NCBI GenBank assembly: GCA_029856045.1
Contig: JAHQWG010000016.1
Coordinates: 416,001 to 480,000, forward strand
Reading direction: 5' to 3'
Origin: Promethearchaeia archaeon
GTDB taxonomy: Archaea > Asgardarchaeota > Lokiarchaeia > Sigyniarchaeales > SOKP01
Length of the DNA: 64,000 bases
The notes beneath the pieces are model-generated. The model did not search any database, was not told the DNA's origin, and was given only the letters and a program-made list of their open reading frames with translations. This document shows positions 57,028 through 61,030 of this stretch, piece after piece. Position 1 is the first letter of the stretch. Each line of letters starts with the position of its first letter. A program made the translations under genes and the position numbers.

Positions 57028-57645
57028 CTATTCGCCTAATTCATTTAACTCGAAATATTTTTCCTTATATCCTGCATCAGTTATTGTTAAAATATCAATA
57101 CCATTACCTGACATTGCATCTCTTGCTATCGCAGAACGTATTATTTTTTCTATTAATTTTTCACCTTTTACAATTGTAATTTCTGAGTTATATTCTGATT
57201 CAAGCATTCCGACCATCATCAGCATACTCGTACCCCCTACTCCGTAGTCATCAGGCATCAAAGATCCGATTGCATCTAATGTATAAAGCTTTGGTCCATC
57301 AAGATCTACTCCAGCTATAACAACATTTGTAAATAATGGAAACATTTTCCGATAATACAGATAATTACTTAACATTTTACCCATACTTTTTGTAGAAATT
57401 CTTGAACCAGCTTCGTATTGATATAAATTTGCTCTAGCTTTCATAATTTTCACCAAAATCTGAAAATCTCCAATTAACCCATATGCTGAAAGGCCAATAT
57501 GATCGGTTAATGGAAATACCTTTTTGGTTGATTTATTAGTAACAGTATAACCTAAAGTAGCCCGTCGATCATTACCTAAAACCACCCCATCTTTGCATTT
57601 TATTGCGACCGAAGCCGCTCCTGGAACCATGAATTCCATGCTCAT
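57028..57645 (-). CDS. psmB: Proteasome beta subunit, predicted non-catalytic
   Basis: KDGVVLG.D.R.T, KKVF, G..GD, GVD..GP.LY.LD..G and RDAMSGNG; the N-terminus is PGAASV instead of GTTTV. Confidence 0.93.
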   Translation of the reverse strand: MSMEFMVPGAASVAIKCKDGVVLGNDRRATLGYTVTNKSTKKVFPLTDHIGLSAYGLIGDFQILVKIMKARANLYQYEAGSRISTKSMGKMLSNYLYYRKMFPLFTNVVIAGVDLDGPKLYTLDAIGSLMPDDYGVGGTSMLMMVGMLESEYNSEITIVKGEKLIEKIIRSAIARDAMSGNGIDILTITDAGYKEKYFELNELGE

Positions 57646-57937: not shown

Positions 57938-58156
57938 TTAGAAATATTTGATTGCTAAAAGCAAATCATCCTTTGTTACTTTCTTTCTTCCTGCATGATT
58001 ACAGAATGTGATAGCTTGTTTAGTAATAGCGGTAGCTGTATTTTCTAAATTTTCAATCAAGAGATCTACTGCATCTCTCGCAACAATGGTTGCACCTTGC
58101 TTTTTCATTAATCTCCTAACTGGACTCCAGGCGAAAGAGTGTTTCTTTTTTGCCAT
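57938..58156 (-). CDS. Archaeal histone (histone fold)
   Basis: P.RRLMK..GA..V..DAV...A.....HAGRKKV..DD..LA pattern. Confidence 0.93.
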   Translation of the reverse strand: MAKKKHSFAWSPVRRLMKKQGATIVARDAVDLLIENLENTATAITKQAITFCNHAGRKKVTKDDLLLAIKYF

Positions 58157-58270: not shown

Positions 58271-58837
58271 CAAGAAGGATATTTTTAAAAACATAAAGTA
58301 AAAATCGACAAAAATTGGAAATTATATTTTGGTAAAATTTTCTTAGAATAAAGCCAATAAAAATTACTTAAAGAAGGAAAATGCAAAGTTAAAAACTTTT
58401 ATTAAGAATAATAGAAAAAATTTTTAGGTTATATATTGAAATTGAATGTGATATTTCATTAAAAATTCTTATTTTAAAGGACTTAAAATTAAAATCTATA
58501 GCCAATATTAGTAATATTTGTTTTTTTTTTAAGATTTTCCATAAATCTTCATATGAATGTTAAATACAATGGATCTTAGCATTTTTAATAAATATTTAAT
58601 AAATTTTAAATTCAATTAAATTTATTCAATTTAATTTTTCTTGTAGAAGATCAGCTTATAAATAATTTTTGCTCTTTCAAACATAAGTAATAATACATTT
58701 ACTTTGATAGTGTGATTTAAATTAAAAATTTGTAAGATTATTAAATATATAGCAGTTTTAAAGCATTCTTAAAAATTATTAAATAATACAAAAAATTAAT
58801 TTAATTATCACAATCAAATCCAACTATTTTGATAAAT

Positions 58838-59503
58838 ATGGTTCTGAAAGAAGAATTAGAAAAGAAAAAAATAGCTGAAGAACACGAAAAAAATGGCAAA
58901 ACTAAGCAATATTTATTTGATTCGATGAAGTTAATTGTTGAAAATATAAATAAAAATATAAATCATCTTTCCGATAATTGGAAATTTACAAAGTCTTTCA
59001 TAGATATTATATATGAAGGAATAAAAACCAAAAGACATTTCTTCTTATTAGCATCAGGCAGGAGTGCTATGATATTACAATGTTTTGCAACGCGATTAGT
59101 CCATTTGGGAGGGAAAGCGTTTATGGTTTCTAATTTACAAAGCATTCCTGCTATGAAAAAGAAAGATATATTAATTGTTCTGTCAGGATCAGGGACTACT
59201 TCAGTAGTTCAAAGTCTTTTGGGGTCTTATGTAAATTCTGTAATTCCACACGCAATAATTGTAATAACATCATATCCTGATACCACTATTGGCAGAATGG
59301 GGGATTTAACAATCAAATTATTAGGAAGAACAAAAAGAGATCAAGAAGCAAAAGAGGATGAGCTCGAAGCAATTCTTACTCCAGAAGGAACAGCGTTTGA
59401 ACAAATTGCTTTTACCTATTTAGATGCGGTAGTTGCTGAACTAGCAGTACGCTTGAATAAAACTAATAAAGACATGTTAAAAAAGCACTCACAAGGGACT
59501 TAA
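58838..59503 (+). CDS. 6-phospho-3-hexuloisomerase-like SIS domain protein
   Basis: SGRS, F..RL.HLG, SGSGTT, P.GT.FE and C-terminal M...H motifs. Confidence 0.85.
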   Translation: MVLKEELEKKKIAEEHEKNGKTKQYLFDSMKLIVENINKNINHLSDNWKFTKSFIDIIYEGIKTKRHFFLLASGRSAMILQCFATRLVHLGGKAFMVSNLQSIPAMKKKDILIVLSGSGTTSVVQSLLGSYVNSVIPHAIIVITSYPDTTIGRMGDLTIKLLGRTKRDQEAKEDELEAILTPEGTAFEQIAFTYLDAVVAELAVRLNKTNKDMLKKHSQGT

Positions 59504-59603
59504 ATTCAATTTATTAAATTATGATATTTAATTTTTGATTTAAGTCAATTTTTGATTATTTTTTTTACCCAAATATTAAAATAACTAATTAAATTTTATA
59601 TCA

Positions 59604-59680
59604 ATGCACCTGTCTATAGTATTTTTTTGAGATTCTAATTTTGGAAACAATGAAAAAAAAACTCCAGCAGGTGCACATCA
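59604..59680 (+). ncRNA. Box H/ACA pseudouridylation guide sRNA (single hairpin with K-turn)
   Basis: GCACCTG/CAGGTGC lower stem followed directly by ACA; internal pocket; T7/A7 upper stem; tandem GA/GA with an AAT bulge; apical hairpin; 14 nt from pocket top to ACA. Confidence 0.8.
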
Positions 59681-59725: not shown

Positions 59726-61030
59726 ATGAGTTTGGAAAAAAAATCTTTAATTTTATTTAATTATTCAAAACCTAATACTTATTCCTATGCTGCTTTAATG
59801 GGCTCATTAGATTCTTTCTCTGATTTTTCTGATAATTTTGAAATAAAAATAATCAACCAAAATTTATTTAAATTTCTTAAAAATGAACAAAATTGGCAGA
59901 ATTATTCCAATTATAAACATATTATTTTATTATATTCACTATTCTCTGAGCAGTTTCTTGGATTTTCAGATAAAATATTTAAAATTAAAAAATTATTTAA
60001 AGAACATATAGAGAAATCACCTATAATAATTGCTGGTGGCCCTCATCCAAGCGCAAGACCTATAGAAGTGTTAAATACAGGCGTAGATATTGTTATTCAG
60101 GGAGAAGGAGAGTATAATTTTCCGAGAATTATAAATTGGATCCATCAAAAAGATTATTTAGATGAATCTTATGATGATTATCGAGGTAAAGGTGGAATAT
60201 ATTATTACTATAATAGCAAATTATGTTCAAAAGAAAGTTCGGAACGTTTAAATTTAGACAATTACTCATCGATATCTTTCAAACACAGATTATTTGGTCC
60301 AGTAGAAATTTCTCGTGGGTGTCCATTCTGTTGTAAATTTTGTCAATATGGAAATTTCTATAACAATATGAAGCATAAATCTATTAAGACAATATTTAAA
60401 ACTATAGAAAAAGCAGTTGAAGTGAAATATGATAAAATATGGTTTCTTTCATCGAATTCTTTTGCTTATGGATCAAAATCTCTAAACCCAAATCCAGGGA
60501 AGGTGAAAGAATTATTAGGTAAACTTTATAAAATTGAAGGTTTAAATGAGATCTATTTTGGTACATTTCCAAGTGAAGTTAGACCTGAATTTGTAACACG
60601 TGAAATTATAGACGCTTGTCTACCATACATTTCAAATAAATATTTTGTTATTGGAGCTCAAACGGCTTCAAATCGATTATTACAATATATTAACCGAGGT
60701 CACACATTTGAAGATGTCTTGAATGCTATAGACATTTTAAAGGAATATGGATTTAATTGTCATCTAGATTTTATTTTTGGACTTCCCTCAGAAACTTCAG
60801 AAGATATTGACAAAAACATCAATTTTTTTAAATATGTTCTTAATAAAAATAATATTAAAATTCATTCACACACTTTTATGCCTTTACCTGGTTCTAAATT
60901 TGAAAATGAGCCCGCCGGAAAAGTTTCAAATCGACTGCAAAAAATTTTGAGACAATTAATTAGTCAGGGTAAGGCATACGGTCAATATCAAAATCAATTG
61001 AAAGTAGGTCAATTGATCGAAAATCTTTAA
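59726..61030 (+). CDS. B12-binding domain/radical SAM protein (TIGR04013-like)
   Basis: GGPHPS, GEGE, EISRGCPFCCKFC, GTFPSEVRP and HTFMPLPG motifs. Confidence 0.9.
   Translation: MSLEKKSLILFNYSKPNTYSYAALMGSLDSFSDFSDNFEIKIINQNLFKFLKNEQNWQNYSNYKHIILLYSLFSEQFLGFSDKIFKIKKLFKEHIEKSPIIIAGGPHPSARPIEVLNTGVDIVIQGEGEYNFPRIINWIHQKDYLDESYDDYRGKGGIYYYYNSKLCSKESSERLNLDNYSSISFKHRLFGPVEISRGCPFCCKFCQYGNFYNNMKHKSIKTIFKTIEKAVEVKYDKIWFLSSNSFAYGSKSLNPNPGKVKELLGKLYKIEGLNEIYFGTFPSEVRPEFVTREIIDACLPYISNKYFVIGAQTASNRLLQYINRGHTFEDVLNAIDILKEYGFNCHLDFIFGLPSETSEDIDKNINFFKYVLNKNNIKIHSHTFMPLPGSKFENEPAGKVSNRLQKILRQLISQGKAYGQYQNQLKVGQLIENL

What the first reader, a model, noticed from the sequence alone, without database searches (positions are those of the whole stretch)
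59604..59680. Unannotated box H/ACA guide RNA that appears to target a rRNA pseudouridine site also modified in eukaryotes
Seen in sequence: lower stem GCACCUG (59606-12)/CAGGUGC (59668-74) followed immediately by ACA (59675-77); 5' pocket UCUAUAGUA (59613-21); upper stem U7 (59622-28)/A7 (59654-60); tandem GA (59629-30)/GA (59652-53) with a 3-nt AAU bulge; apical hairpin GAUUCUA-AUUU-UGGAAAC; 3' pocket ACUCCAG (59661-67); exactly 14 nt from the pocket top to ACA. Established: this is the architecture of archaeal single-hairpin H/ACA RNAs (an L7Ae-binding K-turn with U at L3, and the 14-16 nt rule). Inference: the pocket predicts the target UGGAG(U/C)-PsiN-UACUAUAG. That matches LSU rRNA domain V just after the 2058 loop (recalled archaeal-type GUGGAGCUUUACU, E. 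coli ..UUUACUAUAG), placing Psi at E. coli U2074. By my recalled numbering this equals yeast 25S Psi2416 (snR11 target), so an Asgard guide may serve a site also modified in eukaryotes.
Basis: partly seen in the sequence, partly recalled or inferred. Interest (0 to 1): 0.9.

Follow-up and report, generated by a model that had tools for sequence, protein, structure and literature searches.

The report
H/ACA guide for ribosome helix 69

Summary
The hairpin at 59605-59677 is real (z -4.1; no Rfam match). It occurs in 37 of 61 related genomes, with compensatory changes in 16 of 18 stem pairs. It has the anatomy of an archaeal single-hairpin box H/ACA guide, and the genome encodes Cbf5, Nop10 and L7Ae.

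The host 23S lacks the recalled sequence, the pair next to the uridine is a mismatch in every genome checked, and that register gives a 9-layer upper stem, which published rules call non-productive.

Moving the pocket one layer gives ten Watson-Crick pairs around U1911 in helix 69, with the productive 10-layer stem. The perfect complement occurs once in the 3.34-Mb genome, at that site. In two distant Asgard genomes guide and rRNA change together (U-A to C-G).

Psi1911 is known in E. coli, human and Chaetomium but not yeast; I found no archaeal report or guide for it in the papers I could read. Expression and modification are untested. This scan has noted the same U1911 guide in other Asgard genomes. 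New member of a known kind.

The parts
59570..59581 (+). Putative archaeal promoter: short A-rich BRE-like stretch followed by a TATA-like box (59574-81), about 25-30 nt upstream of the hairpin
   Evidence: Sequence; 59570-59604 is 33/35 identical in G002 against 43/66 further upstream; an A-rich then T/A-rich block sits at the same distance in homologues. Inference, not mapped.
59605..59612 (+). Lower stem, 5' strand
   Evidence: Fold; all 9 lower-stem model pairs show two-sided changes
59615..59620 (+). 5' guide strand UAUAGU; pairs with 23S ACUAUA (E. coli 1913-1918)
   Evidence: Present in 37/37 CM-found homologues; changes to CAUAGU where the rRNA reads ACUAUG
59621..59628 (+). Upper stem, 5' strand: 8 layers including the pocket-closing layer (A59621.A59661 here, G.U in 78 of 84 homologues)
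59629..59653 (+). K-turn (GA 59629-30; AAU bulge 59649-51 with U at L3; GA 59652-53) capped by an apical hairpin of variable length
   Evidence: Alignments A3/A4; closing G-C pair in 36/37; 5' GA reads AA or UA in 5/37
59654..59661 (+). Upper stem, 3' strand
59662..59667 (+). 3' guide strand; CUCC (59662-65) pairs with 23S GGAG (E. coli 1907-1910)
59668..59674 (+). Lower stem, 3' strand
59675..59677 (+). ACA box, 13 nt from the pocket top in this genome and 14 nt in most homologues
   Evidence: ANA at 14 nt in 49 of 84, at 13 and/or 15 in 7, none at 13-15 in 28
58829..59503 (+). Upstream neighbour: HxlB-like sugar isomerase gene (context only)
   Evidence: TIGR03127 E 3e-31, below cut-off; lies upstream in 68 of 80 homologous loci
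59726..61030 (+). Downstream neighbour: TIGR04013 B12-binding radical SAM gene (context only, not conserved next to the RNA)
   Evidence: downstream in only 2 of 77 distinct loci

Best explanation
A stand-alone, roughly 75-nt box H/ACA guide RNA that directs Cbf5 to make pseudouridine at U1911 (E. coli numbering), the loop-closing uridine of 23S rRNA helix 69 (genome C27:251016). Shown from sequence: the fold, its conservation, the complementarity and the guide/target covariation. Inferred from the known archaeal H/ACA particle: L7Ae binds the K-turn, Cbf5 binds the lower stem and ACA end, Nop10 and Gar1 complete the particle; CUCC pairs with GGAG and UAUAGU pairs with ACUAUA, leaving U1911-A1912 unpaired at the pocket top, 10 layers below the K-turn. 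Not shown: transcription, particle assembly, the modification itself.
For: U1911 is the only site in host 16S+23S with 10 contiguous Watson-Crick pairs in any of four registers (next best 7); 1/400 shuffled rRNAs reach 10. The perfect complement occurs once in both strands of the 3.34-Mb genome, in helix 69 (position mapped to E. coli 23S). This register gives 8+2 = 10 GA-stem layers, as in 14 of 15 productive P. abyssi folds, and most homologues are the canonical 10/5/9 fold (PMC4652768). Helix 69 is identical in the 23 Promethearchaeia genomes where it was recovered. G067 and G148, from two other Asgard families outside the class, have guide CAUAGU and rRNA ACUAUG. Family-f2 homologues extend the 5' guide to 8-12 pairs with helix 69. 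Cbf5, Nop10 and L7Ae pass cut-offs, Gar1 is weak, no RluD/RluA-family synthase found. Top hit of a genome-wide H/ACA descriptor scan.
Against: No expression or modification data. The 3' guide gives only 4 contiguous pairs here (3 in four homologues), and its fifth base is A in 56 of 84 homologues, which does not pair with helix 69; it can pair inside the RNA with the first U of the 5' guide. This copy is slightly off-canon: A.A closing layer and 13 nt to ACA (13 nt is described for Pyrobaculum sR201/202). A third of homologues lack ANA at 13-15 nt (tolerated in Haloferax single hairpins, PMC7075261). The covariation is one base pair in two genomes, possibly a single event. Homologues were seeded on the UAUAGU motif, so its invariance is partly by construction. 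U1911 is unmodified in Haloferax (U1936) and not among the sites in S. islandicus or P. abyssi.
Confidence: 0.86

Rival explanations
1. One reading: the same RNA guides Psi at E. coli U2074 (domain V), alone or as a second target of the same pocket.
For: Second-ranked site when mismatches are allowed: 5 pairs on each side; 14 nt to ACA in this genome; the common fifth 3' guide base A pairs with this site; archaeal pockets can serve several sites (PMC2377435).
Against: Mismatch at n-1 in all genomes where both sequences were seen; 9-layer GA stem; the invariant second A of the 5' guide faces C; the site varies (C/U at 2073; CACC in G067) with no matching guide change, whereas helix 69 changes are tracked; 21 of 84 homologues have CUCCC, which fits helix 69 and not this site.
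Confidence: 0.05
2. The RNA binds helix 69 as an L7Ae particle during ribosome assembly (chaperone-like) or is a weakened guide in this genus, without efficient pseudouridylation.
For: Off-canon features in this genus (A.A top layer, 13-nt spacing, ACU/ACC boxes); short 3' guide in family f2.
Against: Family-wide geometry matches the productive class exactly; the ACA box is dispensable for typical single hairpins; the genus still conserves the RNA strongly.
Confidence: 0.06
3. A cis-acting element: terminator or 3' UTR hairpin of the hxlB-like gene, or an L7Ae-bound leader of the downstream gene.
For: Lies downstream of hxlB in 68 of 80 loci; L7Ae binds K-turns in mRNAs (own knowledge).
Against: Does not explain invariant internal-loop bases complementary to helix 69 or their covariation; the downstream gene is not conserved; G067 and G148 have different neighbours; a separate promoter-like block lies upstream.
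Confidence: 0.03

Closest known systems
Classic single-hairpin archaeal box H/ACA sRNAs: Pab91, Pab160/Pf9, Pab21 (P. abyssi, PMC2377435); S. islandicus sR115, sR435 (PMC11077068); Pyrobaculum sR201/sR202
   Same: One hairpin with lower stem, bipartite pocket, K-turn 10 layers above the pocket and ANA tail; homologues mostly fit the 10/5/9 fold of PMC4652768.
   Different: Different target; no Rfam model matches; very AU-rich upper stem; ANA box often degenerate.
Known archaeal helix 69 guides: Pab40 motif 3/Pf7.3/Af4.3 (Psi1917 equivalent), H. volcanii sR-h45 SL2 (1915 and 1917), S. islandicus sR148 (1917 and 1923 equivalents)
   Same: Same RNA class and same rRNA helix.
   Different: None targets 1911; they are parts of multi-hairpin RNAs or atypical guides, with different pocket sequences. 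RF00064 (HgcG/Pab40) does not match this genome.
Bacterial RluD
   Same: Makes Psi1911 (with 1915 and 1917) in E. coli (PMC2794176).
   Different: Protein-only enzyme; its Pfam family PF00849 was not found in this genome.
Eukaryotic H/ACA snoRNA for the 1911-equivalent site (human 28S Psi3727 in PMC2875026 numbering; guide SNORA23/ACA23 from memory, not confirmed)
   Same: Same position modified in human and in Chaetomium (Psi2217, PMC12723226).
   Different: Eukaryotic guides are two-hairpin RNAs without a K-turn; yeast lacks this Psi; homology was not tested.

Membership tests
Archaeal box H/ACA guide sRNA | Hairpin with lower stem, internal pocket and upper stem | tested here: met
Archaeal box H/ACA guide sRNA | K-turn or K-loop with tandem G.A pairs facing the pocket | tested here: met
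   GA/GA with 3-nt bulge ending in U across alignment A4; 5' G replaced in 5/37. Sequence level only.
Archaeal box H/ACA guide sRNA | GA stem of 10 layers (productive class, PMC4652768) | tested here: met
Archaeal box H/ACA guide sRNA | ANA box 14-15 nt from the pocket top | tested here: inconclusive
   13 nt in this genome; 14 nt in 49 of 84 homologues; none at 13-15 in 28
Archaeal box H/ACA guide sRNA | Bipartite complementarity around an unpaired UN in a host RNA, no mismatch at n-1 or n+2 | tested here: met
   4+6 Watson-Crick pairs at U1911, unique in the genome, with one covarying pair. Not met for U2074.
Archaeal box H/ACA guide sRNA | Cbf5, Nop10, Gar1 and L7Ae encoded by the host | tested here: met
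   Cbf5, Nop10, L7Ae over cut-off; Gar1 E 4e-5, below cut-off
Archaeal box H/ACA guide sRNA | Expressed as a small RNA, binds L7Ae/Cbf5 and produces Psi at the target | not testable with these tools
   Needs RNA data and biochemistry
Any Rfam 15 family (HgcE/F/G and other archaeal H/ACA models) | Score at the family's gathering threshold | tested here: not met
Eukaryotic H/ACA snoRNA | Two hairpins with an H box hinge and no K-turn | tested here: not met
   Single conserved hairpin with a K-turn; conservation stops right after the box

The most novel reading that the evidence does not exclude
This is an old Asgard guide family (three or more distant families) for Psi1911, a site not reported as modified or guided in the archaea I could check, and it is the archaeal forerunner of the eukaryotic guide hairpin for the same site, kept in humans and Chaetomium and lost in yeast, while bacteria reach the same modification with RluD.
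Probability: 0.2. Interest if true: 0.68.

Novelty: new member of a known kind. Interest (0 to 1): 0.43.

Why it matters
It adds an uncatalogued Asgard H/ACA family with a sharp, testable target in the subunit bridge B2a. If Psi1911 is confirmed, this position would be modified in all three domains by two routes (RluD in bacteria, RNA guides in Asgard archaea and eukaryotes), and part of the eukaryotic helix 69 modification pattern could date to the archaeal ancestor. The mechanism itself is textbook.

Tried and rejected
U2074 as target: rejected (see rivals). Other registers (GA stem 8, 9, 11) and other rRNA sites: none above 7 contiguous Watson-Crick pairs, 9 with G.U. Rfam at gathering and E-value thresholds: only chance miRNA and C/D hits. 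CM hits in G015, G051 and a second G011 site, and antisense hits: discarded as lacking the motif. Pattern hits in other Asgard families (G081, G123, G124, G132, G062, G073, G063 and others): rejected, most lie inside ORFs or lack stems; the guide was not found in those searched, but these searches are strict and miss diverged guides. Records titled Thor-, Hermod- or Hodarchaeota: the five checked match, by contig and coordinate, genomes classed in the host's own family, so they do not widen the range. Searches for guides of 1915, 1917, 1921, 1923, 2074, 2075 in this genome gave only noise; RF00064 no match. Sigma-70 scan uninformative. One search used a wrong helix 69 pattern and a mis-specified one. 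Two rows (G018, G040) were mis-parsed by my script; counts quoted come. Bernick 2012 (Pyrobaculum guides) was not held, and no recent pan-archaeal modification map was retrieved, so prior archaeal Psi1911 is not excluded.

Full report
Observation. The strand folds at -22.8 kcal/mol, z -4.09. No Rfam family matches. The A run after the 3' GA is eight long, so the pocket can be drawn in two registers; this decides the target.

Host. A pattern built from the family hit 77 loci among 185,579 prokaryotic genomes; most carry Promethearchaeia/Promethearchaeota titles, a few are uncultured archaea or chance bacterial hits. The host is therefore taken to be a Loki-type Asgard archaeon. Its 23S rRNA gene is on the same contig. 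It encodes Cbf5, Nop10 and L7Ae over cut-off, a weak Gar1 match, and no RluD/RluA-family enzyme was found.

Conservation. Four same-genus genomes keep the hairpin while the flanks diverge. A covariance model found it in 37 of 61 genomes once two spurious hits were dropped, across four families, nearly always in one copy. On 37 sequences 92% of stem cells pair, 16 of 18 pairs show two-sided changes, and slid controls fall to 35-54% (the alignment was fitted to the model, so it leans towards the structure). The pocket strands stay almost fixed while the stems vary, as expected for a guide. There are always eight layers between pocket and K-turn; the closing layer is G.U in 78 of 84 parsed homologues and A.A in this genome. 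An HxlB-like gene lies upstream in 68 of 80 loci; the downstream gene varies.

The host 23S reads UACUGCA after the proposed site, not the recalled bacterial UACUAUAG. The best pairing there is five plus five with an A.C mismatch directly next to the uridine. In relatives that position is U.C or U.U. PMC4652768 reports no mismatch at n-1 in productive complexes, and a 10-layer GA stem in 14 of 15 productive folds; this register has nine.

The target is helix 69. With the pocket one layer lower, CUCC pairs with GGAG and UAUAGU with ACUAUA around an unpaired UA. This is host 23S position 2109, which aligns to E. coli U1911 (the strain used is 8 nt shorter upstream, so numbering rests on the helix 69 motif). 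It is the only rRNA site with ten contiguous Watson-Crick pairs, 1 of 400 shuffled rRNAs does as well, and the perfect complement occurs once in the whole genome. The GA stem is then ten layers. Most homologues have ANA 14 nt from the pocket top and fit the 10/5/9 fold. Family-f2 homologues lengthen the 5' guide to 8-12 pairs with helix 69. Two genomes outside the class, G067 and G148, carry a clear homologue with CAUAGU, and their own helix 69 reads ACUAUG: a U-A to C-G change between guide and target. In G067 the 2074 site has changed in a way the guide does not follow. Limits: one covarying pair, two genomes; seeds were chosen on the UAUAGU motif; the fifth 3' guide base is usually A, which fits the 2074 site and not helix 69.

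Mechanism. Shown: fold, conservation, complementarity, covariation, genes for the proteins. Inferred from the known particle (PMC2377435): L7Ae on the K-turn and Cbf5 on the lower stem place U1911 in the active site during pre-rRNA maturation. This genus is slightly off-canon (13 nt to ACA; ACU or ACC in relatives). A 13-nt spacing is described for Pyrobaculum sR201/202, and the ACA box is dispensable for typical single hairpins in Haloferax (PMC7075261). Expression and modification remain untested.

Comparison. Psi1911 is made by RluD in E. coli and is present in human helix 69 (3727) and in Chaetomium (2217, absent in yeast, tying the loop kink). In the archaea I could check, helix 69 carries 1915 and 1917 (Haloferax, Haloarcula; U1911 equivalent unmodified in Haloferax), 1917 (P. 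abyssi), or 1917 and 1923 (S. islandicus). I found no archaeal guide for 1911 and no paper on Asgard H/ACA guides in the library, but key tables were not available. Earlier notes of this scan describe the same U1911 guide in other Asgard genomes; I reached the target before reading them, and they are not independent proof.

Verdict. Observation confirmed; class supported; target corrected to U1911. New member of a known kind, interest 0.43.

Noticed in passing
L135, L136 (G002, G001), L143 (G027), L156 (G059), L290 (G061), L293 (G148): 23S rRNA just 3' of helix 69, near E. coli 1925-1927: Insertions of about 28-31 nt (longer in some) that G000 and G004 lack, patchy even within one genus; they look like small archaeal rRNA introns at a known insertion region (own knowledge).
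   Followed up: no
helix 69 across Asgard genomes: The loop varies by family: ACUAUA, ACUAUG, ACUGUG, ACUCUG, ACCAUG (family f19, C at the 1915 position) and ACCUUG. Loss of U1915 in some families is notable because that Psi is nearly universal.
   Followed up: partly
   Followed up: no
G044 (8 copies), G038, G027, G043; G000 C9:125-135: An 11-mer matching the start of helix 69 occurs in several copies outside rRNA genes, possibly the end of a mobile element.
   Followed up: no
window 57938-58156 (-) and 57028-57645 (-): An archaeal histone gene (NF043032) and a proteasome beta-type gene lie just upstream of the HxlB-like gene.
   Followed up: no
Genome C27:176241-177736 and 248908-252060; C1:2264-2356: The 16S and 23S rRNA genes are unlinked (about 71 kb apart); ARAGORN also calls a tRNA-Sec.
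   Followed up: no
L197, L217, L224, L227-L229, L241, L246, L250: Public record titles (Thor-, Hermod-, Hodarchaeota, one bacterium) seem wrong: the ones checked coincide with genomes classed in the host's family.
   Followed up: partly
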